Sequence record: PQ850605.1
DNA length: 64,000 nt
From: Escherichia phage HansTraber_Bas100
Direction: 5' to 3' (one strand)
This document shows, one piece after another, positions 1-62,675 of this stretch (its first letter is position 1; every line of letters begins with the position of its first letter). The translations under genes were made by a program, and so were the position numbers. The notes beneath the pieces were generated by a model. It did no database searches and was not told the DNA's origin. It worked only from the letters and a program-made list of their open reading frames with translations.

Positions 1-74
1 ATTTGGTAACGGTTGGAACGGATTCGACTCAATTCACGAATTGGATGTAAACTCATTCAAGGAGTGGTTGAAGG

Positions 75-989
75 GTGATTGCTCTCAAGCATATGGAGCA
101 CTCAATAATCCTACTAATTCACCGAAGCAAGGTTGATATGGCTTTTAAAGCTTCGAAAAAACGTGAACGCCGCTCACCCGATAGAATCGGGCGCGGCAGT
201 CCGATAATCCCATCCAATGCTATTGCGATGGCCTATCGTCGTGAGATGAAAGGTCTTTGCTATGCGATGATTGACGACTATCAAGCAGGAATTGCTGAGT
301 GGCTTGAAAAGAAGCAGGTTAAAAAGTTCTTTGCGCAAGACTCTGCTGATTCAACTTTTCAGACCTTGATGAAGCGACTGCAACTGAAATGGGCAAAAGC
401 TTTCGCCCGTGTCGGGTCAAAGATTGCCGCAGATTTCATCAAGTCAGTTGAAAAGGGTGCCACTTCTGCTACATTTGCAAGTCTTAAATCTGCAGGAATA
501 GAAGCGCCAAAAGCCACATATAATAAATTCGTTGAGAACACTCTTAAAACAAGCGAGACGTTCAACACGACTTTAGTGACTAAGGTTGGCGAAGATATTC
601 ACAACAGGGTGTACGAAGCGGTGATGCTTTCGCTTACTTCGCCAGACCCAGCGCAACAAGGCACGTCCGGCATTCAGGCGGCATTAAGGAATGTAAAACA
701 CTTCTCTGCAAAACGCGTAGACCTTATCGCAAAAGACCAAACGAGCAAACTTTATTGCGTATTAAGTGATGAAAGGATGCGACAGAATGGCGTTGAGGAA
801 TTTGAGTGGGCGCATTCAGGAGCAGGAAAAGAGCCGCGAATATCGCATGAGCACGTCGACGGAATGAGATTTAAACTTGATGACAAGCGCCTATGGGAAG
901 TTGGCGGCGAATTGAAGTTCAAAAAGGGTGACATCGGTCCTCCTGGATGGGCGATACACTGCAAGTGCAGAAAAATACCAATTATCTGA
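75..989 (+). CDS. phage head morphogenesis protein (Mu gpF / SPP1 gp7 family)
   Basis: ORF track (GTG start); C-terminal RISHEHVDGMRF...GPPGWAIHCKCR fits the R-x-H-x-x-DG ... PP-x-H-x-C-R-C signature of this family; sits upstream of scaffold and capsid genes. Confidence 0.6.
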   Translation: MIALKHMEHSIILLIHRSKVDMAFKASKKRERRSPDRIGRGSPIIPSNAIAMAYRREMKGLCYAMIDDYQAGIAEWLEKKQVKKFFAQDSADSTFQTLMKRLQLKWAKAFARVGSKIAADFIKSVEKGATSATFASLKSAGIEAPKATYNKFVENTLKTSETFNTTLVTKVGEDIHNRVYEAVMLSLTSPDPAQQGTSGIQAALRNVKHFSAKRVDLIAKDQTSKLYCVLSDERMRQNGVEEFEWAHSGAGKEPRISHEHVDGMRFKLDDKRLWEVGGELKFKKGDIGPPGWAIHCKCRKIPII

Positions 990-996
990 GGTCATT

Positions 997-1917
997 ATGA
1001 CGATACCAATCAACACATTCCCTCTATCTGGACAAACTCCAGTCTTGCCTGCGGTGTATGCTAATGGCTTGGCAATTGTCTCAGAATTCACTTCTGATAA
1101 AAACTTGATTGTTCCACTGAGCCCGCCGCTTGCATCAGGGTATAACTCAGTAGGTCAATTCTTTATGATTGGCAATGATGGCGATTCGACCAGCAAGCCT
1201 AATCTGACGTTGTCTGTGCCTAAGATGAACATCACAGACGTTCAAACTGGCTTGACTGCATCTACAATCACCATTGCTTTTGGAGAAGCAGTGATTATAG
1301 GGATGGAGTCTGGAGGGTCCAAGAATGCTGTCGCCGTTAAGGTAGTAAAATCCAGCGACAACCAATACACTTTACCAGCTGCGACGGCTTCCGTTCTCGG
1401 CGGCGTCAAAATAGGAAGCGGAATAAGCGTCGCAGGTGACGGTACAATTAGCGTCACTCAATACTCATTGCCGATTGCGTCAGCATCTACTTTAGGCGGC
1501 GTAAAGGTCGGTACAACTCTATCAATTGATGGTTCTGGTATGCTTAATGTAGCGCCAAGCACCGTCCAGAATGCTACTAATAGTGTCAGCAATCCTCCAA
1601 CTACTCTGGTCAATCTGGCGACCTTAAACCTTCCTGCAGGGAAATGGCTTGTAACAGCAAGTCAGTTGACTGTCGCGACAGCAGGAATTCAAGCGAATAC
1701 CGGAATTACAGTCAAATTGTCAACAAGCGATTCAGATATTACGGATGATGCATTTACAATGTCAGCTGGCATTCGGGCTGCAGGTCGTTTCGGCGGCAAT
1801 ATTCCAACAAAGATAATTACTCTTGCCGCGCCTGGCGATGTATGTCTAAACTATCAGTGCACCGATGCGTTGACATCTACCGTTTACGGACAGATCACCG
1901 CAATTAAGCTGAACTAA
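997..1917 (+). CDS. virion structural protein with internal LGGVK(I/V)G repeats
   Basis: Internal ATG at 997 with GAGG RBS; repeated TLPAATASVLGGVKIGSGISV / SLPIASASTLGGVKVGTTLSI segments; located in head module. Confidence 0.4.
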   Translation: MTIPINTFPLSGQTPVLPAVYANGLAIVSEFTSDKNLIVPLSPPLASGYNSVGQFFMIGNDGDSTSKPNLTLSVPKMNITDVQTGLTASTITIAFGEAVIIGMESGGSKNAVAVKVVKSSDNQYTLPAATASVLGGVKIGSGISVAGDGTISVTQYSLPIASASTLGGVKVGTTLSIDGSGMLNVAPSTVQNATNSVSNPPTTLVNLATLNLPAGKWLVTASQLTVATAGIQANTGITVKLSTSDSDITDDAFTMSAGIRAAGRFGGNIPTKIITLAAPGDVCLNYQCTDALTSTVYGQITAIKLN

Positions 1918-1927
1918 AGAGGAAGTT

Positions 1928-2065
1928 ATGCAAAAGATTATTCAGTCACGTTATGTTAAAGTGCGAAATATTAATTGCAACTCTTTGCTTTCTTGGAAAT
2001 GGGCTGTTTATGACTCAATGCTGATTGGCGTTTTAGTTGCAGGAGTGCTATTTAATATTCACTGA
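1928..2065 (+). CDS. small hydrophobic protein (45 aa)
   Basis: ATG preceded by AAGAGGAAG RBS; not in the 60-aa track; hydrophobic C-terminal half (LIGVLVAGVLF). Confidence 0.25.
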   Translation: MQKIIQSRYVKVRNINCNSLLSWKWAVYDSMLIGVLVAGVLFNIH

Positions 2066-2107
2066 ATTCATCGGCAAAGGATTGCCGCGAGTTTTATACG
2101 TATAATG

Positions 2108-2373
2108 ACGTATCATACGTATCAAGTAAGTTATTGTTTTCAAAAGAATCTTACGGATGATACGGATGATACGCGTTGCCGCCGTACTATATAGGAATTC
2201 AAATAAATTAATTTAAAATTATATATCTAATTTAATTTTATTTTTTTTATAAACTCTTATATATGAAAAGTATCCGTATCATCCGTATCATCCGTAGCAC
2301 ACCAGTGATAGCGCGGCTTATACACCGATACGGATAAAAATACGCCTCATTTTATCCGTATCATCCGTATCAC
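2108..2373. repeat. iteron-like 9-bp repeat arrays (ATCCGTATC / GATACGGAT, both orientations) flanking an AT-rich core
   Basis: At least 10 copies or close variants at 2111-2128, 2152-2171, 2272-2296, 2327-2335, 2353-2373; AT-rich core 2191-2262 containing TATATAGGAATTCAAATAAATTAATT. Confidence 0.6.
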
Positions 2374-2481
2374 ACTAATAAAGGCGCGGCTATATCGGTT
2401 GTTATACATATTCAAACCATAATTATTGTTTGCCTAAGTTTTTTTCATTAGATATAATACACAATACTTATTTGAGGGTGG

Positions 2482-3903
2482 ATGCGAATGCAAACGGCAC
2501 GCGAAATTGACAAAAATGGATTCTTGACGATTATGGGTTGTCCAATTTCGTCATTTGGCATTTTTGATTATTCTGCTGGTCAAGTTGGTCTTGATGGTGA
2601 TCCGAATCGCATCGTAAAAGTCTATCGCCCTGAGTCAGCGGTGAAAGACCCCGAAGCGATAGATTCATTCAAAAATATCCCTTTCATCGACAATCACGAA
2701 ATGCTTTCTGGATTTGAAGGTGATGAGGATAACACAGCACCCGAAGAGTATGGAGTTGATGGCGTTCTGACTGGCAATGTTTATTATGACAAGCCATGGA
2801 TGCGCGGCGACCTTAAAGTGTTCAGCCGTCGTCTGAAGAAGGCCATTGATTCTGGAAAGGTTGACTTGTCTTTGGGCTATGACTGTGAATTCATCATACA
2901 GTCTGGAGAGTTTGACGGGCAGCCGTATGAAGTGGTGCAGACAACTCTTCGCGGCAACCACATTGCTCTCGTGGACGTTGGTCGAGTACCAGGTGCACGG
3001 GTGCTGGATGGTCGTTGCTTTGACCATCTTTGTTTGACGACTGTAACACCATCCAACGAGGATTTAGACATGCCAAAACCGTTAAAAGGTAAAGCGCGTG
3101 ATAATGCTGTTGAACAGCTGAAATCACTGATCCCTGCGCTCGAACAATTTCTGAACGAAGAGAGTACTGAAGCTGCTCATCAGGATGAAGTTGAAGTGAA
3201 AGCAGAAGAGAAGGACTCAACCGAAAATCGTGAAGAAGTAATGGTTGATCCAGAAGTCAAGGCAGAAGCAGAAGAAACCCCAGAAGGTGAAGAGAAGTTT
3301 GAAGTTGAAACTGAATCTCACGCTGGCGGCGAACTTCCGCAATTGATCAGCCAAATCGAAGCACTTATTGCAAAACTGAAAGGTGGCGCGGTAGGTGATG
3401 AAGAAGAAGTTGAAGCCGAAGTCAAAGACGAAGAAGAAGTTGAAGTCAAGGCTGAAGATGTATCACCTTGCGACAAAGCTGAAGATGTGGTTAGCGGCCT
3501 GCAAAACAGCAACGTAAAGGGGGCTTCGGTCGAAAAAGATGACAAACCGACAAAAGCGGCGAAAGCGTCGCCAGGTCCAGCAAAAGGGGAACACTCAATG
3601 GCATCTGATTCAGCAGTTGCTGCTTTCTACGCTGATTCTGCTCGTAAGAATAGCCTCTACCAGCGCCTGTCTAAAGTTGTTGGTGCCTTTGATCATGCAA
3701 CTATGGACTCCAAGTCCGTAGCGAAATATGGCGCTAAAAAGTTAGGCTTGAAGTGCGTTGATGGGGCTGAGTTTGACGTGGTGGATAATTATCTGCGCGG
3801 CGTTGAGCACGGTCAAAAACAGCGTGTAGTCGCAAAACAAAAGGCCGCTGCGGATTCTGCAGCAACTGACGAAGCATTTGAAGCTTGGTTGAAAGGGGAA
3901 TAA
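2482..3903 (+). CDS. prohead protease / scaffold protein (Mu gpI-like), acidic helical C-terminal half
   Basis: N-terminal ~180 aa with RGNHIALVDVGR segment; C-terminal half is Glu/Lys/Ala-rich (EEVEVKAEEK..., EEEVEAEVKDEEEVEVKAED) typical of scaffold domains; immediately upstream of capsid gene. Confidence 0.5.
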   Translation: MRMQTAREIDKNGFLTIMGCPISSFGIFDYSAGQVGLDGDPNRIVKVYRPESAVKDPEAIDSFKNIPFIDNHEMLSGFEGDEDNTAPEEYGVDGVLTGNVYYDKPWMRGDLKVFSRRLKKAIDSGKVDLSLGYDCEFIIQSGEFDGQPYEVVQTTLRGNHIALVDVGRVPGARVLDGRCFDHLCLTTVTPSNEDLDMPKPLKGKARDNAVEQLKSLIPALEQFLNEESTEAAHQDEVEVKAEEKDSTENREEVMVDPEVKAEAEETPEGEEKFEVETESHAGGELPQLISQIEALIAKLKGGAVGDEEEVEAEVKDEEEVEVKAEDVSPCDKAEDVVSGLQNSNVKGASVEKDDKPTKAAKASPGPAKGEHSMASDSAVAAFYADSARKNSLYQRLSKVVGAFDHATMDSKSVAKYGAKKLGLKCVDGAEFDVVDNYLRGVEHGQKQRVVAKQKAAADSAATDEAFEAWLKGE

Positions 3904-3905
3904 AC

Positions 3906-4523
3906 ATGACTTTCCAAACTAGTGTAGGCCGTCAATATACAACTGGCTTTCCTGGCGACATCGTTCGCGACGGCCCACAGCGTGGGAAGCCAGGCCGAAT
4001 CGTTAGCGCCAACGACGGTGCAAACGTAAACGCCATCAGCCGTGTGTTTGGTTTTAAGGCTGACGTGTCATTAATGGGTACTGGCCAGACCAAAACCTTG
4101 GGCGCGCAGGACTTTGAAGTTGAACTGGGCGGCACCAATTACTATGGCATCCTTGGCAACAGCAAGCGTTACGCTCTGTATGGCAACTCTACTGGTCCTT
4201 TGGGTGCCAGCATGGTTCTGCCTCAATATAGCGAAGGCGAGTTCTATGATATGTGCACGGGCCTCGTAGTTGAAGTATTCAACCCAAGCACCAGTCCGCA
4301 GACGCTGAACTACGGCGACCTGCTCGCTTATGTACCTAAAGGCATTTCCAGCGGTAACAACCCGAACAACTTGCCTATCGGTGCAATTATCGCCTATACT
4401 GGCTCACTGCCAACTGGCATGGTTGCCATTCCAGGCGGTATCGTGATTGACCCGACTGCTATTGCCCTTTCCGGCCCAAGCGTCCAGTCTTCCACTTATA
4501 CCATTGTACAATTGACTCGTTAA
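3906..4523 (+). CDS. head protein (possible decoration / minor capsid protein)
   Basis: ATG at 3906 with AGGGGAA RBS; Gly-rich 205-aa protein between scaffold and major capsid genes. Confidence 0.4.
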   Translation: MTFQTSVGRQYTTGFPGDIVRDGPQRGKPGRIVSANDGANVNAISRVFGFKADVSLMGTGQTKTLGAQDFEVELGGTNYYGILGNSKRYALYGNSTGPLGASMVLPQYSEGEFYDMCTGLVVEVFNPSTSPQTLNYGDLLAYVPKGISSGNNPNNLPIGAIIAYTGSLPTGMVAIPGGIVIDPTAIALSGPSVQSSTYTIVQLTR

Positions 4524-44179: not shown

Positions 44180-45850
44180 ATGTCAATTAATAACGACAAT
44201 CTTCCAGAGGATACAGGTGATGAATTTGGTGCAATCTTTGACGAAATTCAAGATGCAGGCGTTTCGGAAGAAATGCAGGCAGCAGAGCAGCAAGGCACCA
44301 GAGCTAAAATCAGCCTTCAACATAAAGCCGTTGAAAAAGATTCAGAGCGCATGGAATGCTACGGTGAAGAAGACTTGGTTGAAAGAGCACGCTTGCTCGC
44401 CTCACTTCAGGTAATCAAGTTCCCTCACTACAAGCCGACCAAAGATGACTTCGTTCTACAGGCAGACCGGACGAGTGACATGAACCGTTATGCGGTTTTC
44501 GACGCGTTGTTTGATAAGGGAAGTGGCGTTGTTCCATTCCCTCACAAAGATACCTTTCGTGGGCGCTTAGTCGACCATCGCGGCGAAACATTCACCGACC
44601 GTACTTTGGAAGTCACAGAGATAGTTGCCGCTGTCGACGCAGCAGGATTGTCCAACCCAAACTCACGTCAGGTCGCTCAATCCTATAAGGAATGGGCCAT
44701 GCGTTATCAGCGCGACGACCTGATGGACTTCTTCTACAAGAAGCTGCCTGAATGGGACGGTACTGCGCGCATCGAGAAATACCTTATCGAGCTATTCCGA
44801 CCGTTCGATACAGAGTTAAACCGACAAATCGGTGTGTATTTTTGGCTATCGCTCTACAACCGCCTGACCAACCCTGGCTGTCAAGCGCCAATCTCCATTG
44901 CGCTCATCGGCGGCCAGAACGCAGGGAAGAGTTATTTTAGCAAGCTGCTTTGCGAAGCTATTATGAACGACCGCCACGCAACACCGATTCCGTTGAACTT
45001 AGCCGCGCAGAACTTCAACCCGTTCTTGCGAGCTATTACGGGTCGCTCAATTATCGCGAACGTCGGCGAGATGACAGGCTTTAAAAAGGCCGACATCGAA
45101 AACATGAAAGCATTCCTGACTAAGACGGAAGATGACCTGGACTTCAAATTTGAAGATACGCAGGTTAAACCACGCCAGTGGATTGCTATCATGGACGGCA
45201 ACGAATACGCAGGCATGCAGCGTGATGACACGGGCAACCGTCGTGTGTATCCTATCTTTGTTGGCCAACTCGCTGACAAGGACGGGCAACCGAACTGGTC
45301 GAAAGACTTCCAAGCTGACCTTTCCACTTTGAAAGAAGATGTTTGGCAATTGATGGCTGAGTGCGCTGCTTGGATGGAGAAGCACGGCGAAGCAGGCTAC
45401 AACGCGTTTGTTGGTGAAACATCTCGCATGCTTACTGAGTTCAGTAAAAACGAAATGGAACGTGCGCGCGGCGTTATCCGTGATGAGATGGTTGACAATG
45501 ACCTTGTTGAAGTCGTCATCACCGCGCCTTATGACCGACATCACAGCGGACGCTGGCACATCACCAGTGGTGCTATTGCTATGGGATTCAGAGCGAAGTG
45601 TGGCAAGTCGCCTTTCTCTCGTACCCTTGCGCCGCACATGTCGAAGCTTGGTTTTGAGCCTGCAACCTATCGCAACCAGCGCGGTTACTTTACGCCGCTG
45701 ATTAAGAATGAAGCAGGGGAATACATTTCTGACTTGATGACCATCTTAGCGTATCTTATCCGTGATGAGTCTGACCCTGAAGATATTGAATTCTTGAAGA
45801 AGGTTATCGAGCGTAAACGTTCTTTGGGAAGAGATAAGGATGAATTCTGA
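44180..45850 (+). CDS. primase-associated helicase (D5 / VirE-like P-loop NTPase)
   Basis: 556 aa; Walker A IALIGGQNAGKSYF; downstream of the primase-like gene. Confidence 0.6.
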   Translation: MSINNDNLPEDTGDEFGAIFDEIQDAGVSEEMQAAEQQGTRAKISLQHKAVEKDSERMECYGEEDLVERARLLASLQVIKFPHYKPTKDDFVLQADRTSDMNRYAVFDALFDKGSGVVPFPHKDTFRGRLVDHRGETFTDRTLEVTEIVAAVDAAGLSNPNSRQVAQSYKEWAMRYQRDDLMDFFYKKLPEWDGTARIEKYLIELFRPFDTELNRQIGVYFWLSLYNRLTNPGCQAPISIALIGGQNAGKSYFSKLLCEAIMNDRHATPIPLNLAAQNFNPFLRAITGRSIIANVGEMTGFKKADIENMKAFLTKTEDDLDFKFEDTQVKPRQWIAIMDGNEYAGMQRDDTGNRRVYPIFVGQLADKDGQPNWSKDFQADLSTLKEDVWQLMAECAAWMEKHGEAGYNAFVGETSRMLTEFSKNEMERARGVIRDEMVDNDLVEVVITAPYDRHHSGRWHITSGAIAMGFRAKCGKSPFSRTLAPHMSKLGFEPATYRNQRGYFTPLIKNEAGEYISDLMTILAYLIRDESDPEDIEFLKKVIERKRSLGRDKDEF

Positions 45851-46497
45851 TGAATAAAGCAATCAACATCGCTAAATTCTTTCAACATCTTGGTGAACTG
45901 AACAAAGAAAGTGACGTTCACGGCGAAGAAATGAACCGGATGATCTCAACCGTGTTGCGTGGCTTTGGTTATGATAAGGACTCAATCACTTGCAAGCGTA
46001 CAAAGCTTGTTGATGAGTCTTATCTTTACTACGTAGAGCTGCGCATCGGGAAAGATGTGATGATCATTGACCCTAAACTGGAAGGGGCGCACTGTTTTGG
46101 CGCTCACCCTCGTGCGAGTGAATTCAAGGGTCGCGGTCGCAACCGAATCCAGAAGCTTGATGACGCAGGCGACTTGAACATTGCAATGTTCCTCAAAGAG
46201 TTCCTTGCTCTTCCAAAGGTTGCATCATCCACGGGTCGCGATGACCCTTGCAAGATTGGCTTCAGAACTAAAGATTTGCGCAATGCGCTACGCAAGAAGG
46301 GATTTGTGCCTTCTTATGACAACGTCGCCGCGCTGATGGCTTCAATGGAGGAAGCTGAAGCGATGGACAAGGTGCGCGGCTATTTCCTGAATACAGGCTT
46401 CACCATGTATGAATGGCACACGAAGGGATTGACTGTCGCCGACTTCATCTATTCATTAGAGCAGAAGTATGTACGCAATATGCAGGCCACAGGATAA
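45850..46497 (+). CDS. hypothetical early protein
   Basis: ORF track; start overlaps the helicase stop. Confidence 0.4.
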   Translation: MNKAINIAKFFQHLGELNKESDVHGEEMNRMISTVLRGFGYDKDSITCKRTKLVDESYLYYVELRIGKDVMIIDPKLEGAHCFGAHPRASEFKGRGRNRIQKLDDAGDLNIAMFLKEFLALPKVASSTGRDDPCKIGFRTKDLRNALRKKGFVPSYDNVAALMASMEEAEAMDKVRGYFLNTGFTMYEWHTKGLTVADFIYSLEQKYVRNMQATG

Positions 46498-46536
46498 TTA
46501 TCATCAAAATATTTGCTTTTCTGACGAGGTGATATT

Positions 46537-46761
46537 ATGATTAATTTAGACAGGATTGAGTTAGCACTTAGTACCTTAATCAAATATTACCAGTTTGCGT
46601 TTAAGGCTAGTTTGTTTGGCTTGTTCAATCCTCATCAAGCAGCAAAGGCGAGAAGCAATGCCAACCGCCTGCGCTGTACTGGTATAGTTATCCATGACCG
46701 GATATTGACAGAGGGTAGATTCAGCCATGAATACACAGGGGAGAATAACAAATCAACGTAG
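46537..46761 (+). CDS. hypothetical early protein
   Basis: ORF track. Confidence 0.3.
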   Translation: MINLDRIELALSTLIKYYQFAFKASLFGLFNPHQAAKARSNANRLRCTGIVIHDRILTEGRFSHEYTGENNKST

Positions 46762-46936
46762 GGCTTTACAAGTCCTCATCCACTACCTGTCACGCCTTTA
46801 TCCAACGGCGCACGAGCAGAATCCAGCAACTGGTCATCTGTTTAAGCGCCGTAACCTTTCGCTAAAAACATTCACTTTAATCCAATATGACCGCTACCTG
46901 GACGGGCGCTACTGCGGCCCGAAGGATTCTCTATGA
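46727..46936 (+). CDS. hypothetical early protein
   Basis: ORF track. Confidence 0.3.
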   Translation: MNTQGRITNQRRALQVLIHYLSRLYPTAHEQNPATGHLFKRRNLSLKTFTLIQYDRYLDGRYCGPKDSL

Positions 46937-54330: not shown

Positions 54331-54700
54331 GATACGCCTAAAATACGGTTAAAAATTAAGCGTATCATGGCTGCAGGCCGCGCCGTTGCTGGATTCCTAT
54401 TTTCAAAAGTGGTACACCCTTACGTCATGATACGTCATGGTTTTCTATCCGTAAGAGTGTACAGCCCTTGCCGCGCCTGGCTTGTACATTAATCTTACGG
54501 ATGATACGGATAAAACTGAGCATCGTTATATATAGAATTCGAAAAATTAATTAACTCCATTTTAAAAACATTTATATTAATTTTTTTCATATCCTCATAC
54601 TTATGTTAATTTATATATTTAACGTATCATCCGTAAGATATAAGTAAAAACAAAGACTTGCGGCAATACGGATGATACGTCATGATACGCTTCAACCAGC
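54331..54700. repeat. second iteron-like ATCCGTATC/GATACGGAT repeat region with similar AT-rich core
   Basis: Same architecture as 2108..2373; core TATATAGAATTCGAAAAATTAATTAAC closely resembles the first region. Confidence 0.6.
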
Positions 54701-54917
54701 CAGCAGCGGCTAAGTCATTGATTTGCATAACAAGCGGCGAAAGGGATGGATTTCTTTTATACGTATCAAACAGTACACCACGCACCACGGTCCGCTATTC
54801 ATTCAGCACTATGATTTATGTACTTTTACAGCCAATCTGAACATCAATCTGCACTTGAATATAATGTTCATTCATTGTATAATTCACACTATTAATTTGC
54901 ACTATGGGATTTGCACT

Positions 54918-55391
54918 ATGAGTCAAGATTATGTAGCAATGCCTGAAGACTTTGAAGACCCGCGATTTGCAGAGCATAATCAGGCATTATTCGATGAGTT
55001 CATTGACCTTGTTATTCAGGGCCATGACATGCGCGCAGCTTTTGCACTAGTATTTGGCATGGAGGTTGCGACCGATAACTACACTGGCCAGCGAATCCTC
55101 TGCACGCAACGCAATCCGTACTACAAGATGCGCTACAAAAAGCGTATGGAAGAGATGCCATTGAAGGAATTGTGGAGCGTAAAGAGTTCCATCCACAATT
55201 TAGTGAAGCTTGTGCGTGATCCAGAAGTCGCGGCGTCAGCCAAGCTTAATGCCATTCGTGAACTGAATATCATCTACGGCATCACGATGATTGATGAAAA
55301 TGGCAATAGTAAAATGGGCCGTTCCATGGACGATTTCTACAAGGATTTTGGAGAGGCAGCCAAAGAGGGTGAGCAATTCTCCCGCCACTAG
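54918..55391 (+). CDS. hypothetical protein (158 aa); start codon embedded in the ATTTGCACTATG motif
   Basis: Internal ATG at 54918 preceded by two motif copies; phage-like base composition; function unknown. Confidence 0.4.
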   Translation: MSQDYVAMPEDFEDPRFAEHNQALFDEFIDLVIQGHDMRAAFALVFGMEVATDNYTGQRILCTQRNPYYKMRYKKRMEEMPLKELWSVKSSIHNLVKLVRDPEVAASAKLNAIRELNIIYGITMIDENGNSKMGRSMDDFYKDFGEAAKEGEQFSRH

Positions 55392-55408
55392 CCAATTTGC
55401 ACTATAAA

Positions 55409-55446
55409 ATGGCCCTAGAACACATTTTCTCCACTTCTAGGGCCAT
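55409..55446. other. perfect 12-bp-stem hairpin (ATGGCCCTAGAA / TTCTAGGGCCAT, 14-nt loop)
   Basis: Perfect inverted repeat 3 nt after the motif copy at 55394-55405 and 18 nt after the stop of 54918..55391; no T-run. Confidence 0.5.
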
Positions 55447-55505
55447 CGGTAATACGACGGGGAAGGTTACAACCATAAACGCGTTAGAAAGTGTATTATT
55501 ATAAG

Positions 55506-55769
55506 TCATCTTTTAGTCACTTTACGTAACAATTTACGACCTTCCGCCGTCCAGTCGAACGACTCCACCAGCAGATTTGCACTATAACCTAAGACGATGC
55601 GTCCCTTCTCGTTATCGACCCGCCAACAAGTCTCGAATAGCATTCGATTTGCACTATTAACTATCGCCGCGACGCGCGTTGGGTAAGCGCAATTTGCACT
55701 ATGGTCATAAAGGGATAAGGTGCGACCGCTTCCGATGGACAACGTAGCGATAAGAATAAGCGTATTCAT
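55506..55769 (-). CDS. doubtful ORF reading through the motif array (motif encodes S-A-N three times)
   Basis: ORF track; hydrophobic N-terminus MNTLILIATLSIGSG; weak RBS; may be an artefact of the in-phase DNA repeats. Confidence 0.2.
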   Translation of the reverse strand: MNTLILIATLSIGSGRTLSLYDHSANCAYPTRVAAIVNSANRMLFETCWRVDNEKGRIVLGYSANLLVESFDWTAEGRKLLRKVTKR

Positions 55770-55819
55770 AAGCCACCAATTTGCACTATGAAAAGCGACC
55801 CCGAAGGGCCGCCATTCGA

Positions 55820-56446
55820 TTAGATAATCTGGAATGTGTAGGACTTGTTGCCGAACTCGAAGTTCAAGCGTCCAGCTTCCTTAAGCTTCATGCGGAAGCG
55901 AATGTGCTTGCTATCCGGTAATCCCAGCGCGGCGAACGCTACGCGGACCGATTTGAACTCGCCTACACCCTCGACCATGACACCGTTACGGGTGAGACGC
56001 TTTTGCGCCACTTCCTTATTATCCCAGCTTTTTGCAATACCTTCGCTATTCGAACGGCGATGGGAAGGAGTTCCATTTTGCACTACGCAATTTGCACTAT
56101 CGTTTAAACCGCTCTTAACGAAGGCTTCATACTCTTCGTCGGTCATCGCGTCGAGTTCTTCCTGGGTCGGCTCGGCCTTTTTAACGACCGCACGCGCCTT
56201 ATGCGTTTTTACATCGCTGGGCACTTCCTCGCGCGACTTCGCGTCTGGGATGGGCGACTCGTTGGACGGCTCATCGAGCGCGTTTAAGGACTCGATTAAC
56301 GCTATTACGCGAGTCTCGGCGGTCCGGCGGTCCGCAAATTTTTTGATCGGCTTCGAACCGGAATTTGCATTGTAAAATGCAACGAGGTCGGCGGTCTTAG
56401 TTGCGATAACGTCGCCGCTAGTCGAGAAACGATTTAAGCTAACCAT
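55820..56446 (-). CDS. hypothetical two-domain protein (208 aa) of the foreign cassette
   Basis: ATG with AGGAG RBS; structured N- and C-terminal regions separated by an acidic low-complexity linker; contains motif copies at 56075-56100; CpG-rich codon usage. Confidence 0.5.
   Translation of the reverse strand: MVSLNRFSTSGDVIATKTADLVAFYNANSGSKPIKKFADRRTAETRVIALIESLNALDEPSNESPIPDAKSREEVPSDVKTHKARAVVKKAEPTQEELDAMTDEEYEAFVKSGLNDSANCVVQNGTPSHRRSNSEGIAKSWDNKEVAQKRLTRNGVMVEGVGEFKSVRVAFAALGLPDSKHIRFRMKLKEAGRLNFEFGNKSYTFQII
56075..56100 (+). repeat. two adjacent motif copies (ATTTTGCACTAC, AATTTGCACTAT) inside the 208-aa gene
   Basis: Read directly; on the coding strand they translate as D-S-A-N-C-V-V-Q-N. 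Confidence 0.6.
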
Positions 56447-56526
56447 AATGAACTCCTATTTGTTAGGGCGCTAGGCGCGAAAGAATTTTATTAAAGCGCC
56501 GCGCACGACGCTCTAAAAATCCTCTC

Positions 56527-56811
56527 TTACGCTTCGACGAGGGAGAAGGTCTCAAATTCTTCTTCGCCCATAACGAGTAAGATGTTACCGATTTCGACCG
56601 CTTCGAAGAAGTATCCGTTAACGTTTACTTCGAAGGCTTCGCGGTCCGATTCCGGTAACGCCGCGTAAAGTTTAAAAGCCTCGGCGACCGTTACCCCACC
56701 CGCCTCGATAGTTTGGTCTACGTTCGCGGCGTAGACTTCGGATAAAATTTGTTTTACGCCGTAGTTCTCGACGATAGCGTTACGAATAGAAGAAACGTTA
56801 AGAATAGCCAT
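56527..56811 (-). CDS. small acidic protein, paralog family member 1 (94 aa)
   Basis: AGGAG RBS; shares SEVYAANVDQTIE and VNVNGYFFEAVEIG blocks with 57445..57735; net charge about -12. Confidence 0.5.
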   Translation of the reverse strand: MAILNVSSIRNAIVENYGVKQILSEVYAANVDQTIEAGGVTVAEAFKLYAALPESDREAFEVNVNGYFFEAVEIGNILLVMGEEEFETFSLVEA

Positions 56812-56834
56812 TTTAAACTCCTAGTTGGGAGAGG

Positions 56835-56860
56835 CGTTAACGACCTATTCGTTAACTCAT
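56835..56860 (-). promoter_or_regulatory. 5' leader element: mini-uORF (ATG-AGT-TAA) overlapping a hairpin GTTAACG-AATAGGT-CGTTAAC
   Basis: Conserved with the leader of 57445..57735; stem differs but stays complementary, loop AATAGGT identical. Confidence 0.45.
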
Positions 56861-56879
56861 CCCGTCCCGATATGAGTAC

Positions 56880-56907
56880 ATTATAATATAGTGTAGAAAA
56901 AAGTAAA
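56880..56907 (-). promoter_or_regulatory. cassette promoter P1 (TTTACT-17-TATAAT on the - strand)
   Basis: - strand reads GTGCTTTACTTTTTTCTACACTATATTATAATG, near-identical to P3. Confidence 0.45.
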
Positions 56908-56917
56908 GCACTTTTTC

Positions 56918-56944
56918 GATAAAAATGAGATAAATTATTTTATC
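56918..56944. promoter_or_regulatory. palindromic operator-like element between divergent promoters (GATAAAAA-11-TTTTTATC)
   Basis: 8-bp inverted repeat centred between the -35 elements of P1 and P2. Confidence 0.35.
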
Positions 56945-56951
56945 TTTTTTC

Positions 56952-56979
56952 TTTACTTCTTCGTACACTCGCGTATACT
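56952..56979 (+). promoter_or_regulatory. cassette promoter P2 (TTTACT-16-TATACT)
   Basis: CTTTACTTCTTCGTACACTCGCGTATACT shares the TTTACTTCTTCGTACACT block with P3. Confidence 0.4.
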
Positions 56980-57035
56980 TGTTTATATCGAGACGGGCGA
57001 TGGCCCTTCCTTCTACTAGCATCGGGAGTTTTATT

Positions 57036-57338
57036 ATGACTACTTTAATCTCTTCTATCCTTACTTACGACGAAGACCGTTTAACCGTTCGTTCTCTTAT
57101 CGCCGCCGTTAACGCGGAACTAGAATCCACCATCATTAAGGTCCGCGCGGTCGCTTTCGTCGGGCTTTCCTTCGACGATATGAAATACGCCGAACGTAGC
57201 GCCATCCGCTTCGCGAAGACCGACGACGAAGCCGTTACCCTTATCGAGACGGTTACGCCTCACGGCGAAGCGTTAATTATCGTCGAGTATATCGACGTAG
57301 AAGGCGATAAAGCTTATAAACATTTTATCGCAAAATAA
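57036..57338 (+). CDS. small acidic protein, possible divergent paralog family member 2 (100 aa)
   Basis: ATG with GGGAG RBS 7 nt upstream; an in-frame upstream ATG at 57000 is also possible; N-terminus MTTL resembles the other two. Confidence 0.45.
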   Translation: MTTLISSILTYDEDRLTVRSLIAAVNAELESTIIKVRAVAFVGLSFDDMKYAERSAIRFAKTDDEAVTLIETVTPHGEALIIVEYIDVEGDKAYKHFIAK

Positions 57339-57348
57339 CGAAAAGTGC

Positions 57349-57377
57349 TTTACTTCTTCGTACACTAAGACTATAAT
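57349..57377 (+). promoter_or_regulatory. cassette promoter P3 (TTTACT-17-TATAAT)
   Basis: GTGCTTTACTTCTTCGTACACTAAGACTATAATG upstream of 57445..57735. Confidence 0.45.
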
Positions 57378-57395
57378 GTTTTATATCGAGAGGGG

Positions 57396-57419
57396 ATGAG
57401 GTAGCGAATAGGTCGCTAC
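57396..57419 (+). promoter_or_regulatory. 5' leader element: mini-uORF (ATG-AGG-TAG) overlapping a hairpin GTAGCG-AATAGGT-CGCTAC
   Basis: Counterpart of the 56835..56860 element with compensatory stem changes. Confidence 0.45.
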
Positions 57420-57444
57420 CCGCCCGACCAACTAGGAGATTATT

Positions 57445-57735
57445 ATGATTACTTTAGCCGCTATCCGTTCCGCTCGCGTCGAGACTTCCGAAAACTCTAA
57501 CGTATTTGGCGAGACTTTAGAGAGCGTTTATCTCTCTAACGTCGACGCGACTATCGAGTCTATTTATGAGCCGATCAACTTCCTCGACCTTTACAAGTAT
57601 CGCGACGAGGACATCGTATCGTCCCGCGTAACGATCAACGGCTTCGTTTATACGATTACCGAAATCGGCGGCGAATATATCGCGGTCCCGCAACTCGGCG
57701 GCGAAGTAACTTATTTTAAAATCGTCTCCTTATAA
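57445..57735 (+). CDS. small acidic protein, paralog family member 3 (96 aa)
   Basis: AGGAG RBS; ESVYLSNVDATIES and VTINGFVYTITEIGG blocks shared with 56527..56811. Confidence 0.5.
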   Translation: MITLAAIRSARVETSENSNVFGETLESVYLSNVDATIESIYEPINFLDLYKYRDEDIVSSRVTINGFVYTITEIGGEYIAVPQLGGEVTYFKIVSL

Positions 57736-57755
57736 TACCCTTCCGTTACTAATAG

Positions 57756-57780
57756 GCCGCGCTTAGTCGCGGCTTTTCTT
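57756..57780 (+). terminator. rho-independent terminator (GCCGCG-CTTAGT-CGCGGC + TTTTCTT)
   Basis: Perfect 6-bp GC stem followed by a T-run 20 nt after the stop of 57445..57735. Confidence 0.6.
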
Positions 57781-57900
57781 CGTCCCTATCTCGTTGCGCT
57801 CCTACGCGAAAACTCCTTTATCCTTCCCTTCGTCGTCGCATAATCTTCGTCGGTATGCGCCTTAGTTCGCATAACAGGTATTACGTTAAATGGAGAACAT

Positions 57901-57973
57901 CGCGTAAGTCCTTGTTTTATATAGACACCTATATCGGACCGTTAGGGCGGGTCGCGTAAGTCGTTGTTTTATA
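57901..57973 (+). repeat. 21-bp direct repeat CGCGTAAGTC(C/G)TTGTTTTATA, two copies 52 bp apart
   Basis: Copies at 57901-57921 and 57953-57973 inside the 0.6-kb non-coding stretch; palindrome ATATAG-ACAC-CTATAT between them. Confidence 0.55.
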
Positions 57974-58202
57974 AAGGCGCAAAACTTTCCCTTCGTTCCG
58001 AACTAAAACGAGAAATATGCGGACCCTTCGCTCGAAAATAGTACGCATGCGAAATTACCGACATCTAGAATAATCCCCATCGATATTATCCTACGCGCAA
58101 CCATTCGCTTTCGAATTGTAACGCTGGAAACTGTAACGGCGATTGATTATTGCGTTCGTGTGGTTTTTAGGGCATGGGTCTTTTGGTGCGTTTTGCTACT
58201 TG

Positions 58203-58318
58203 ATGGAATTTGCAGTACACTAATCAAAATACGACACATTTGGTCCACTAACTTTTCAAAGAAAAAGTCCTAGACAGTACCGTACTATTTTGTATCCACA
58301 GGAAATTTGCAGTACACT
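58203..58318 (+). repeat. two copies of 17-bp GGAA(A)TTTGCAGTACACT, a variant of the left-end motif
   Basis: Copies at 58203-58219 and 58301-58318; palindrome CAGTACCGTACT between them at 58274-58286. Confidence 0.55.
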
Positions 58319-59102: not shown

Positions 59103-59498
59103 TCAATATTTTAATAAGAAAGCACCCAACCAACTTTCCTCAATCTCGCGGCCAGTAGCCACACGGTCGGTCTTGGCTATGGGTCTGGATTCGCCGCAGG
59201 GCAATCCGTCCTGTAGTTGTGTACTATTGCCAATTCTCACCAGAATCTTTCCATCAGGGTCGATATAAGCGCGACAGCCCATGATTTCGAGCCGTTGTAG
59301 ACACTGGCGAATCGTTTTCAGCTTCTCACCGGACCGGATAGAGCGCGGTCGCGACCGCTGACCATTCTTATTCACTGTACGCTTGAAGACCGGAATATCA
59401 TTGGTGCGTTGCGGCTTCGGTCGGTAGTAGGCTTCTTCGCCAGGAGTCGCGCCTGGCGTCAGTTCGCGCTTAAGCGCCTTTTCAATATCAATGATCAT
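59103..59498 (-). CDS. hypothetical basic protein
   Basis: ORF track. Confidence 0.4.
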   Translation of the reverse strand: MIIDIEKALKRELTPGATPGEEAYYRPKPQRTNDIPVFKRTVNKNGQRSRPRSIRSGEKLKTIRQCLQRLEIMGCRAYIDPDGKILVRIGNSTQLQDGLPCGESRPIAKTDRVATGREIEESWLGAFLLKY

Positions 59499-59592
59499 AA
59501 TTCATGCCGCAGCAGCGTGAATGATTGCGTAAACAATTCCTAACAGGGCGACGACACAAACCGTGCCCCAAAATGCAAAGCGCCTTGCTTCT

Positions 59593-59880
59593 TTATCCAT
59601 TAGACCCTTCTCCGCTGTTAATGTTGTCTAGAATCAAGGTTGGAATTTCATCTTGAGTCCTGACTTTGTAATGCGAAGGCATCTTGCTTTCTAACAATGC
59701 CTGTTCTGCTTCTCCCTTTGTCTCAAAGAGCGGGATGCACCAATCAACTGCATTGCCGTGTTCATCACTATTGACGGCCTTCAAAAAGACAAGTCGTTTG
59801 TCTGCAGGGTCGATTCCGCAAATTAAGTATTTTGGAAGAGCCTTTGCTTTCTGAGCCTTATCAATATCTTCAAATTTCAT
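59593..59880 (-). CDS. hypothetical protein
   Basis: Internal ATG at 59880 with GAGGTG RBS. Confidence 0.4.
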   Translation of the reverse strand: MKFEDIDKAQKAKALPKYLICGIDPADKRLVFLKAVNSDEHGNAVDWCIPLFETKGEAEQALLESKMPSHYKVRTQDEIPTLILDNINSGEGSNG

Positions 59881-62295: not shown

Positions 62296-62333
62296 TTTAC
62301 GGTCCTCGTTTTGTCGACAACCGTATTATAACC

Positions 62334-62675
62334 TTAATTTCTTTTGAGAGGAATATGACGGTGGCTGCCATTATTTGGTTTAATAATGAGCATAAAAACG
62401 ATTAGAAAGATGATGGCTGATATACTTAATTCAATCAGCGCGGCTTGAGATATAGATTGATCTTCATGATACTGCTTTTGCATTTCCGCTTTCTTCTGAG
62501 CGCAAACTTCAGGTGATATGTAATCGCCTTTTGAGTTGCCATAATAAATTTCACCGTTTTCAGAAATCAGTCTGCCGCAAATATCCGTTTCAGCCTTTGC
62601 GCTTGACATCATAATAACGGTGCCGATGATAGCGGCGATAGTCCAGATTAGCAGTTGTGATAAAGTGTTGTTCAT
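62334..62675 (-). CDS. membrane protein (113 aa)
   Basis: Internal ATG at 62675 with AAGAGG RBS; N-terminal signal/TM segment and C-terminal TM segment LIELSISAIIFLIVFMLII. Confidence 0.4.
   Translation of the reverse strand: MNNTLSQLLIWTIAAIIGTVIMMSSAKAETDICGRLISENGEIYYGNSKGDYISPEVCAQKKAEMQKQYHEDQSISQAALIELSISAIIFLIVFMLIIKPNNGSHRHIPLKRN

What the first reader, a model, noticed from the sequence alone, without database searches (positions are those of the whole stretch)
55820..56446. 208-aa cassette protein whose gene contains copies of the repeated motif
The gene has a strong RBS and protein-like sequence with two structured regions and an acidic linker, and carries two adjacent motif copies at 56075-56100 plus a near-palindromic variant at 56362-56382 (TTGCATTGTAAAATGCAA). 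Binding sites placed inside the gene of their own binding protein are typical of partition and initiator proteins, so this protein is a candidate motif-binding factor.
Basis: inference. Interest (0 to 1): 0.6.

Follow-up and report, generated by a model that had tools for sequence, protein, structure and literature searches.

The report
Phage DNA-binding gene inside polar repeat array
The 208-residue gene is a real, conserved gene of an E. coli virus that probably encodes a DNA-binding protein, but the repeats inside it are only the edge of a one-stranded array of signals near the end of the viral genome, and nothing shows that this protein reads them.

Summary
The window is a Wifcevirus, a PB1-like virulent E. 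coli myophage. The ORF at 55820..56446 (-) is a genuine gene under purifying selection and lies inside the ~3.6 kb direct terminal repeat. It belongs to a large uncharacterised phage family (PHROG 4730).

AlphaFold gives three parts: a small helical N-domain that looks SAP-like, an acidic disordered linker, and a C-terminal beta-beta-HTH-beta domain. The C-domain's closest structural matches are sCTP-23166 and the DNA-binding HTH of homing endonuclease I-HmuI.

The two motif copies in the gene are real. They are the far edge of 10 exact TTTGCACTA copies, all on one strand, at 54896-56099. The array starts at the small-terminase (TerS) promoter and start codon, about 340 bp from the genome's left end.

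The same motif, polarity and position recur in five more lineages (p208 identity down to 47%). Chi sites lie interleaved with it on the same strand.

The intragenic pair is missing in two Wifceviruses. Homologues with identical DNA-contact residues occur in genomes without the motif. So DNA binding is plausible, "binds its own intragenic sites" is unproven, and a partition or initiator role is not supported.

The parts
55820..56446 (-). p208 CDS (208 aa). It has an N-terminal helical, SAP-like domain (aa ~10-58), an acidic disordered linker (aa ~60-130), and a C-terminal beta-beta-HTH-beta-beta domain (aa ~133-208). Equals CPT_Mansfield_004 / WFC_00110; PHROG 4730.
   Evidence: Purifying selection: 13-42 synonymous against 1-15 non-synonymous codon differences.
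56453..56457 (-). Ribosome-binding site AGGAG, 6 nt before the ATG.
   Evidence: Read from the sequence; annotated in Mansfield.
56880..56907 (-). Sigma-70-like promoter (TTTACT-16-TATAAT) placed to drive the leftward operon p94-p208-p87.
   Evidence: 10/12 match. Function is inferred.
56527..56811 (-). p94, the first gene of the leftward operon; unknown function.
55795..55812 (-). Hairpin GCGGCCC-TTCG-GGGTCGC followed by TTTTC. It looks like an intrinsic terminator or attenuator after p208 and is directly followed by a motif copy and the p87 RBS.
   Evidence: Read from the sequence. The same layout occurs in L011.
55506..55769 (-). p87, a small protein with a signal-peptide-like N-terminus. 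It carries three motif copies, all coding x-Ser-Ala-Asn.
   Evidence: Homologues are present in L011, L014-L017 and SMP.
55409..55446 (.). 12-bp-arm perfect inverted repeat between the convergent TerS and p87 genes; looks like a bidirectional terminator.
   Evidence: I18.
54918..55391 (+). Small terminase (TerS), 157 aa.
   Evidence: PDB 7UXE, E217 small terminase, E = 9e-33; Mansfield annotation; PHROG 4783.
54855..54883 (+). Sigma-70-like promoter (TTGAAT-17-TATAAT) upstream of TerS. The first two motif copies fall in the predicted 5' UTR.
   Evidence: The equivalent TATAAT lies before three motif copies in L011.
54896..54904 (+). Motif copy 1 (TTTGCACTA), in the TerS 5' UTR.
   Evidence: conserved in 7 of 7 Wifcevirus loci.
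54910..54918 (+). Motif copy 2; its last base is the A of the TerS ATG.
55041..55049 (+). Motif copy 3, inside TerS (codes F-A-L of AAFALVFG).
   Evidence: also present in L011.
55396..55404 (+). Motif copy 4, between the TerS stop codon and the bidirectional hairpin.
55576..55584 (+). Motif copy 5, in p87, 3 nt from the Chi complement.
55648..55656 (+). Motif copy 6, in p87.
55693..55701 (+). Motif copy 7, in p87.
55780..55788 (+). Motif copy 8, between the p208 hairpin and the p87 RBS.
56077..56085 (+). Motif copy 9, in p208 linker codons (V-V-Q frame).
   Evidence: absent in ECML-117 and RCIP0319.
56091..56099 (+). Motif copy 10, in p208 linker codons (S-A-N frame).
   Evidence: absent in ECML-117 and RCIP0319.
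55565..55572 (-). Chi (GCTGGTGG on the - strand), oriented to act on RecBCD entering from the left genome end.
   Evidence: conserved in four of four Wifcevirus loci checked. Chi islands occur in L014-L017 and SMP.
55385..55392 (-). Chi-like octamer GCTAGTGG on the - strand, 3 nt from motif copy 4.
56365..56382 (.).
54559..58183 (.). Direct terminal repeat (~3625 bp), placed by alignment to the record ends of Mansfield, WFH, SP13 and Ro157lw.
   Evidence: PMC6753283. The boundaries are inferred, not measured for this isolate.
58207..58221 (+). Variant repeat AATTTGCAGTACACT, copy 1, 24 bp beyond the right edge of the repeat.
58304..58318 (+). Variant repeat AATTTGCAGTACACT, copy 2.

Best explanation
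The ORF is a real, conserved gene of a PB1-like virulent phage and sits in the direct terminal repeat. A sigma-70-like promoter upstream suggests leftward transcription with p94 and p87; this is inferred.

The protein joins two small nucleic-acid-binding-type modules through a ~70-residue acidic flexible linker. One module is an N-terminal SAP/HeH-like helix pair. The other is a C-terminal homing-endonuclease-type HTH.

The two motif copies in the gene are not a property of the gene. They are spill-over, into the mutation-tolerant linker codons, of a strand-polar DNA-level array of TTTGCACTA. That array belongs to the conserved module TerS -> <- p87 <- p208 and starts ~340 bp inside the left genome end. 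It overlaps the TerS promoter, 5' UTR and start codon. It is interleaved with Chi sites of the same polarity.

The most likely role of the array is tied to the genome end. Candidate roles are marking or orienting the left terminal repeat for the packaging or terminal-repeat machinery, setting TerS dosage, and acting together with Chi on DNA entered from that end.

A partition or replication-initiator function is unlikely.
For: Shown:
- Identity of the phage and the terminal repeat.
- Purifying selection on the gene.
- A family of 831 clusters at 50% identity, with homologues in Pbunavirus and Serratia phage SMP.
- 10 exact copies on one strand against 0.88 expected.
- Same motif, polarity and position in L011, L014, L015, L016 and L017.
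- Copies occupy whichever reading frame has no stop (S-A-N/K, V-V-Q, F-A-L), so selection acts on DNA or RNA, not on protein.
- The intragenic pair is swapped out as a 10-codon block in two Wifceviruses, whereas L017 carries 8 copies inside its homologue.
- Chi islands on the same strand: 6 in L015, 4 in L017, 2 each in L014 and L016, 1 conserved in Wifceviruses, and 5 around TerS in SMP. The motif abuts Chi in three lineages.
- TerS identity.

Inferred: timing of expression, the role of the array, and which factor reads it.
Against: No binding data exist. The fold matches are weak: Foldseek against PDB found nothing below E = 0.25, there is no Pfam match, and the profile match to I-HmuI is E = 1.6.

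p208 homologues with the same recognition helix occur in motif-less genomes, and no residue separates the motif-bearing from the motif-less groups. This argues against p208 as a TTTGCACTA-specific reader.

The E217 TerS homologue showed no appreciable DNA binding in vitro (review PMC9611059).

The array is irregularly spaced, unlike known TerS wrapping sites or iterons.

The terminal-repeat boundaries are transferred from relatives, not measured for this isolate.
Confidence: 0.55

Rival explanations
1. First reader's model. p208 is the specific TTTGCACTA-binding protein, and the sites within and next to its own gene form a centromere-like or iteron-like element for partition, replication initiation or autoregulation.
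For: The HTH fold is of a kind that binds asymmetric sites as a monomer. The array abuts the p208 stop codon in every motif-bearing lineage: it starts at +1 after the stop in L014 and within 5-55 bp in L011, L015, L016 and the window. It invades the gene in L017 with 8 copies. The C-domain is nearly invariant across the lineages in which the motif is invariant.
Against: The intragenic copies are not conserved. There are no copies at the operon promoter 56880-56907, so no autoregulatory layout. There is no ParA/ParM or Rep partner, and the host genome is a virulent phage. Identical recognition residues occur in genomes without the motif. Spacing is irregular.
Confidence: 0.2
2. The array is a pac-like recognition region read by the terminase small subunit, alone or with a helper, as in P22, Sf6 and SPP1 where the site lies in or next to the TerS gene. 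p208 is merely a neighbour.
For: The array starts at the TerS promoter and start codon and has one copy inside TerS. It lies 340-1540 bp from the left physical end and has the same direction as TerS. TerS has a few clade-specific residues in its N-terminal part. Presence of the motif in only one clade is what is expected of packaging sites.
Against: E217 TerS (39% identical) bound no DNA appreciably in vitro. The motif is invariant although TerS identity falls to 45%. Most copies lie outside TerS, and in L015 nearly all lie in the downstream genes. A different repeat (GGATGATACG) flanks the actual repeat boundary.
Confidence: 0.3
3. RNA-level element. The leftward p94-p208-p87 mRNA carries 7 copies of AUAGUGCAAAU, which is complementary to the two copies that cover the TerS 5' UTR and AUG. 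It therefore acts in trans as an antisense brake on TerS translation.
For: Motif copies overlap the TerS start codon in the window and in L011. The copies are strictly on one strand and lie in regions predicted, from consensus promoter and terminator matches, to be transcribed convergently. TerS overexpression is reported to reduce E217 infectivity, so dosage control is plausible.
Against: A purely RNA-RNA pairing would let the sequence drift, yet it is invariant across six lineages. L015 has no copy in the TerS 5' UTR. The association with Chi is unexplained. There are no transcript data.
Confidence: 0.1
4. The motif is a polar signal for a host or phage DNA translocase or nuclease acting from the genome end, a companion of Chi. 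p208 has an unrelated conserved function.
For: The motif shares strand and island with Chi in five lineages and abuts Chi in three. A Chi island at the same place in SMP shows that this end is exposed to RecBCD. Motif invariance fits a conserved host reader. The motif is restricted to lineages carrying the enteric Chi.
Against: No known E. coli enzyme recognises this sequence. SMP has Chi but no motif. The tandem pairs and triples at 12-15 bp spacing look more like protein-binding sites.
Confidence: 0.15

Closest known systems
C-terminal HTH DNA-binding domains of homing endonucleases I-HmuI (PDB 1U3E) and I-TevI (1I3J), and the stand-alone sCTP-23166 (8B6E)
   Different: p208 has no nuclease domain and an extra C-terminal strand. 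It is preceded by two helices and fused through an acidic linker to a second helical domain. Sequence similarity is not significant.
SAP / HeH motifs (Ku70 C-terminus 1JJR, PIAS1 1V66, DEK) and the Rho N-terminal helical subdomain (1A62)
   Different: There is no Pfam SAP or Rho_N match. Assigning the hits to the N-domain is an inference, because aligned ranges are not reported.
pac sites inside or beside small-terminase genes (P22 gene 3, Sf6, SPP1 pacL/pacR, P1 pac hexamers) - recalled from general knowledge
   Same: Short repeated asymmetric elements in or next to the TerS gene, near the first packaged end, oriented with TerS.
   Different: Here there are 10 copies spread irregularly over 1.2 kb through two other genes. 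The phage has a fixed 3.6 kb terminal repeat rather than headful permutation. Its nearest structurally studied TerS did not bind DNA in vitro.
Chi-mediated protection and recombination of linear DNA in E. coli - recalled from general knowledge
   Same: Properly oriented Chi sites close to a DNA end. Clusters occur in relatives.
   Different: TTTGCACTA is not a Chi variant. Its link to RecBCD is by co-location only.
   Same: Direct repeats of 8-11 bp, some in tandem at 12-15 bp spacing.
   Different: There is no partner NTPase or Rep gene. The genome is a virulent phage. Spacing is irregular, the copies sit in coding DNA, and the intragenic copies are not conserved.

Membership tests
PHROG 4730 (uncharacterised phage protein family; Pbunavirus JG024 gp80 / 14-1 gp77) | Full-length profile match. 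| tested here: met
   E = 5e-88 over residues 4-208. tblastn hits in 356 phage records. JG024 gp80 has the same sequence as the 14-1 gp77 entry.
Homing-endonuclease-type HTH domain (I-HmuI/I-TevI; Pfam PF22083 and relatives) | The beta-beta-alpha-alpha-beta fold with the HTH packed on the sheet. | tested here: met
Homing-endonuclease-type HTH domain (I-HmuI/I-TevI; Pfam PF22083 and relatives) | Significant sequence or profile match to the family model. | tested here: not met
   No Pfam hit for the window protein. One of 46 homologues hits PF22083, at E = 0.0035. The PDB profile hit to I-HmuI is E = 1.6.
Homing-endonuclease-type HTH domain (I-HmuI/I-TevI; Pfam PF22083 and relatives) | Fusion to an HNH or GIY-YIG nuclease domain. 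| tested here: not met
   No such domain in the window protein, in 46 homologues, or in 10 longer homologues.
Homing-endonuclease-type HTH domain (I-HmuI/I-TevI; Pfam PF22083 and relatives) | Sequence-specific DNA binding. | not testable with these tools
   Needs EMSA, footprinting or a co-structure.
SAP / HeH domain | Helix-extended loop-helix of ~35-45 aa with a profile match. | tested here: inconclusive
Centromere-binding or partition protein (ParB/ParR/ParG type) | Adjacent partner NTPase (ParA/ParM) and a replicon that needs segregation. | tested here: not met
   The neighbours are TerS, p87 and p94, with no Pfam or PHROG partition hit. The genome annotation is that of a virulent myophage.
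Centromere-binding or partition protein (ParB/ParR/ParG type) | A conserved cognate repeat array next to or in its gene. | tested here: inconclusive
   The array abuts the gene in six lineages. It is absent from SMP, JG024, L018-L020 and L153-L156, which encode homologues.
Replication initiator with iterons | Regularly spaced iterons beside an AT-rich unwinding region, and an initiator fold (winged-helix Rep, DnaA-like or similar). | tested here: not met
   Spacings are 14, 131, 355, 180, 72, 45, 87, 297 and 14 bp, inside coding DNA. A different repeat (GGATGATACG) flanks the AT-rich regions. No Rep-family hit.
pac-type terminase recognition site | Located in or beside the TerS gene and near the first packaged end. 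| tested here: met
   Copies lie at the TerS 5' UTR, start codon and codons 42-44, 340 bp or more from the repeat's left edge.
pac-type terminase recognition site | Bound by TerS, or required for packaging. | not testable with these tools
   The only indirect evidence is that the E217 TerS homologue showed no appreciable DNA binding in vitro.

The most novel reading that the evidence does not exclude
TTTGCACTA is a previously unrecognised strand-polar genome-end signal of Wifcevirus-like enterobacterial phages. It works together with a Chi island. It is read on DNA entered or processed from the left terminus, possibly by the SAP-plus-HTH protein p208, to protect the end or to drive terminal-repeat recombination and concatemer formation. 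This would help explain how these phages do without any known RecBCD inhibitor or other genome-protection system.
Probability: 0.12. Interest if true: 0.8.

Novelty: new variant of a known kind. Interest (0 to 1): 0.45.

Why it matters
The gene belongs to a very large family (831 clusters at 50% identity) that has no annotation. The family includes the Pbunavirus phages used in therapy. A domain-level reading, SAP-like plus homing-endonuclease-type HTH with no nuclease, gives a first testable function.

The polar motif array and the Chi island next to TerS give concrete handles on several open points about Wifceviruses. These are how they define and process their 3.6 kb terminal repeats, how TerS dosage is set, and how their DNA ends survive RecBCD. 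The E217 TerS homologue does not bind DNA in vitro, which leaves the DNA-recognition step of packaging open in this group.

If none of this holds up, the result is still a useful correction: the sites inside the gene are incidental.

Tried and rejected
- Sequence annotation of p208. Pfam, NCBIfam and PDB searches, with the single sequence and with profiles, gave nothing significant. Ten longer homologues had no informative extra domains.
- Foldseek of the full-length model against PDB. Only non-significant winged-helix hits, E >= 0.25.
- Literature search for the motif string. Only unrelated papers.
- Promoter readings of the motif (sigma-70 -35 or -10, extended -10, sigma-54, T4 MotA box, T7-like). 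Rejected because there is no partner element at the right spacing, no phage RNA polymerase or sigma factor is annotated, and no copy lies outside this 1.2 kb.
- DnaA box, marbox and NtrC half-site readings. Rejected on mismatches at required positions (reasoned from the sequences).
- IMG/VR scan for motif pairs. Only Wifcevirus contigs plus unrelated tandem repeats.
- IMG/VR scan for motif plus Chi. The hit count (74) is near chance by my own rough estimate (the collection size is assumed). None of the newly retrieved hits has an array or p208/TerS homologue; the only array-bearing hits are the two Wifcevirus contigs already found.
- Covariation test. No residue distinguishes p208 of motif-bearing phages from that of motif-less phages. 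There is no sub-motif enrichment in motif-less genomes. TerS shows only a few clade-specific positions, with three outgroups.
- Search for a Pseudomonas Chi-like cluster in JG024. Nothing clear.
- The E217 terminase paper could not be read because it is not held.

Full report
**What the window is**

Megablast of 54000-58500 matches 28 phage records at 93-97% identity. All are Wifceviruses or close relatives (WFC, WFH, Mansfield, ECML-117, FEC19, BASEL Bas98-101). These are virulent PB1-like E. coli/Shigella myophages of 66-72 kb.

In phage Mansfield the matching stretch is positions 1-4023, and positions 1-3673 are annotated as a direct terminal repeat predicted by PhageTerm. The record ends of Mansfield and WFH on the left, and of SP13 and Ro157lw on the right, map to window 54559 and 58183. 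Left of 54559 the relatives lose homology. The finding therefore lies inside a ~3.6 kb terminal repeat, not in a mobile or plasmid-like cassette.

**The observation**

The ORF at 55820..56446 (-) is 208 aa, and AGGAG lies 6 nt before the ATG. It is a real gene. Against six relatives it shows 13-42 synonymous but only 1-15 non-synonymous codon differences, and most nucleotide changes are at third positions.

The two motif copies are present at 56077-56085 and 56091-56099. In the whole window TTTGCACTA occurs 10 times, always on the + strand and always between 54896 and 56099. Shuffles give 0.88 +/- 0.81 copies, and none of 100 reached 10.

The 'palindromic variant' at 56365-56382 exists but shares only 7 bases with the motif. 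It encodes the conserved AFYNAN peptide, and synonymous changes alter both arms in ECML-117 and RCIP0319. I treat it as a by-product of coding.

**The protein**

Close homologues are all 'hypothetical'. An exhaustive search finds 831 clusters at 50% identity with E <= 0.001. tblastn finds the protein in 356 phage records, of which 296 are Pseudomonas phages (mostly Pbunavirus; for example JG024 gp80, the same sequence as 14-1 gp77); the rest include Serratia, Xanthomonas, Burkholderia, Pantoea, Erwinia and Aeromonas phages. It is PHROG 4730, function unknown. Pfam, NCBIfam and PDB sequence searches are negative.

An alignment of 46 diverse members shows three parts:
- a conserved N-domain (ELVAFYN...KPVKKFADRKTAEKRV);
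- a variable acidic linker, which carries a zinc ribbon in some members;
- a conserved C-domain (SNSxGIAASW...EFKSVRxAFxxLxLPxSKHIRFRMxLK...).

AlphaFold with this alignment gives mean pLDDT 84.7, with both domains above 90 and the linker low. The C-domain modelled alone has pLDDT 84.8 and the order alpha-alpha-beta-beta-alpha-alpha-beta-beta.

The protein therefore looks like two small nucleic-acid-binding modules on a flexible acidic tether, with no enzyme domain. All fold scores are modest, and Foldseek against PDB found nothing significant.

**The array and its context**

The gene order is TerS (54918..55391, +), then convergently p87 (55506..55769, -), p208 and p94 (56527..56811, -).

TerS is secure: PDB 7UXE, the E217 small terminase, matches at E = 9e-33.

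Consensus scans place a sigma-70-like promoter at 54855-54883 before TerS and another at 56907-56880 before p94. A perfect 12-bp-arm hairpin separates the convergent units. A UUCG-loop hairpin with a U-tract follows p208.

The motif copies are placed as follows:
- two in the predicted TerS 5' UTR, the second ending on the A of the ATG;
- one in TerS, coding F-A-L;
- one between the TerS stop codon and the hairpin;
- three in p87, each coding x-S-A-N;
- one between the p208 hairpin and the p87 RBS;
- two in the p208 linker, coding S-A-N and V-V-Q.

Because TAG is a stop on the gene strand, only these frames are open. The use of two of them shows selection on the nucleic acid rather than on the protein.

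The eight copies from 54896 to 55788 are at homologous positions in all seven Wifcevirus loci examined, with occasional single-base changes. The pair inside p208 is absent from ECML-117 and RCIP0319. There, exactly codons 117-126 are replaced.

**More distant relatives**

Contigs encoding p208 homologues at 66, 58, 52, 51 and 47% identity are L011, L014, L015, L016 and L017. All carry the same 9-mer on the same strand relative to the genes.
- L011: three tandem copies before and over the TerS ATG, one in TerS, two in p87 and one between p208 and p87.
- L014: three tandem copies starting at the base after the p208 stop codon, plus one more.
- L015: ten copies from 53 bp after p208 through two small genes into TerS.
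- L016: one exact and three one-mismatch copies at the same places.
- L017: eight copies inside the p208 homologue itself, seven of them coding x-S-A-K/N/D in the linker, plus one in the next gene.

The module p208 -> p87 -> <- TerS is present wherever the contig is long enough. So the array is a conserved feature of this module, and its exact footprint slides. Sometimes it covers p208 and mostly it does not.

The motif is absent from the whole JG024 genome. It is effectively absent from the whole SMP genome, which has one exact copy, far from the module. It is also absent from L018, L019, L020 and L153-L156.

**Does p208 read the motif?**

For:
- The fold suits a monomer on an asymmetric site.
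- The array always touches the gene's 3' end.
- The C-domain, including the helix LPDSKHIRFRMKLKEA, is essentially invariant across the lineages in which the motif is invariant.
- The nearest studied TerS (E217) showed no appreciable DNA binding in vitro, which leaves room for another reader.

Against:
- SMP and L020 have the same helix but no motif. No alignment column in either domain separates motif-bearing from motif-less proteins. Sub-motifs are not enriched in the motif-less genomes.
- There is no copy at the operon's own promoter.

Whatever p208 does in the wider family cannot depend on TTTGCACTA.

**A clue from Chi**

On the strand that reads TAGTGCAAA, the E. coli Chi octamer GCTGGTGG is clustered:
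- six in 1.2 kb in L015;
- four in 1.7 kb in L017;
- two each in L014 and L016;
- one, conserved, in the four Wifcevirus loci checked and in the window (55565-55572), with a Chi-like GCTAGTGG at 55385;
- five in 1.2 kb around TerS in SMP, which lacks the motif.

In three lineages a motif copy is followed within 1-4 nt by Chi.

Established RecBCD biology says that Chi acts on an enzyme approaching from its 3' side. These sites would therefore act on RecBCD entering at the left genome end and moving towards TerS. This places the array in a region built around a DNA end. It also fits the BASEL observation that Wifceviruses resist most defences without a known genome-protection mechanism.

Whether the motif is functionally tied to Chi, or merely shares the end-proximal location, is not shown.

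**Most likely mechanism, and rivals**

The best-supported reading is this. p208 is a conserved, probably early, DNA-binding protein of PB1-like phages. The motif copies in its gene are overflow of an end-proximal polar array.

The array probably serves the terminal-repeat and packaging machinery, TerS dosage control, or end protection and recombination.

- TerS reading it as a pac-like site: ~0.3;
- p208 as the specific reader: ~0.2-0.25;
- a polar signal for a translocase or nuclease, or another host or phage factor: ~0.15;
- RNA-level antisense control of TerS translation: ~0.1;
- something not on this list: the remainder.

A partition or initiator role is unlikely. There is no partner gene and no replicon to segregate, the spacing is irregular, and the intragenic sites are not conserved.

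**Novelty**

The fold types are known. The family, its domain combination without a nuclease, and the conserved polar array with a Chi island beside TerS were not found described in the papers searched. I rate it a new variant of known kinds, of moderate specialist interest.

Noticed in passing
window 55565-55572 and 55385-55392; L015:6814-8017; L017:144-1365; L014:688,1025; L016:2705,3185; Serratia phage SMP record 45615-46793: Chi (GCTGGTGG) is clustered on the strand complementary to TerS, next to or downstream of TerS, in several PB1-like enterobacterial phages. There are up to 6 sites in 1.2 kb. They are oriented to act on RecBCD entering from the TerS-side genome end. In three lineages Chi sits 1-4 nt after a TAGTGCAAA copy.
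   Followed up: partly
window 54418-54692 and window 2150-2375: A second repeat system, CGGATGATACG(GATGATACG) in both orientations around an AT-rich core, occurs at two places. One core contains the left boundary of the terminal repeat (54559). The other lies in the intergenic region before the 473-aa ORF at 2482..3903, which I take to be the head maturation protease by matching length to the Bas99 annotation. It could be an origin, a regulated promoter or a terminase site.
   Followed up: partly
JG024 record 59115-59640 and 12934/13204; SMP record 62309-62583; L015:8074-8528: Relatives have their own lineage-specific iterons at the equivalent places, which suggests a co-evolving protein and site pair. 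JG024 has GTAATTTGG upstream of TerS and before the protease gene. SMP has GAAAAGTAA/AAAACGAAAA before the gene at the equivalent position (annotated hypothetical). L015 has TATCCGCAAG nine times upstream of TerS.
   Followed up: no
window 58207-58221 and 58304-58318: Two exact copies of AATTTGCAGTACACT lie 97 bp apart on the same strand as the array, 24 and 121 bp beyond the inferred right edge of the terminal repeat. At least one copy is present in all seven relatives and both in four. They look like a diverged relative of the motif.
   Followed up: no
window 54904-54921: The two motif copies before TerS create a 5-codon mini-ORF (ATG GGA TTT GCA CTA TGA). Its stop codon overlaps the TerS ATG (ATGA), a layout typical of translational coupling.
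   Followed up: no
window 55506-55769 (-): p87 begins MNTLILIATLSIGSG, which looks like a signal peptide. Homologues follow the p208 homologue in L011, L014-L017 and SMP. It is probably a secreted or envelope protein and unlikely to bind DNA.
   Followed up: partly
window 56527-56811 (-) and 57445-57735 (+); 56951-56969 and 57348-57366: p94 and p96 look like diverged paralogues in inverted orientation (65-nt inverted repeat, 78% complementary, over their starts). A 19-nt box, CTTTACTTCTTCGTACACT, occurs as two direct copies on the + strand, before the 119-aa ORF (56979..57338) and before p96. A 27-nt inverted repeat (89% complementary) places a related box on the other strand upstream of p94.
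   Followed up: no
L054:10264-10503, L067:4661-4899, L036, L070, L075 (IMG/VR contigs): Unrelated viral contigs carry TTTGCACTA in regular tandem arrays with periods of 11-15 bp. Some are arranged as three forward plus three reverse copies ~200 bp apart, like plasmid or phage iterons. None encodes p208 or TerS homologues. This is probably coincidence of sequence.
   Followed up: partly
L003:4605-5639 and L003:9167-9670 (Serratia phage SMP): SMP carries two paralogues of the p208 family. One has a ~130-aa N-terminal extension with no Pfam match.
   Followed up: no
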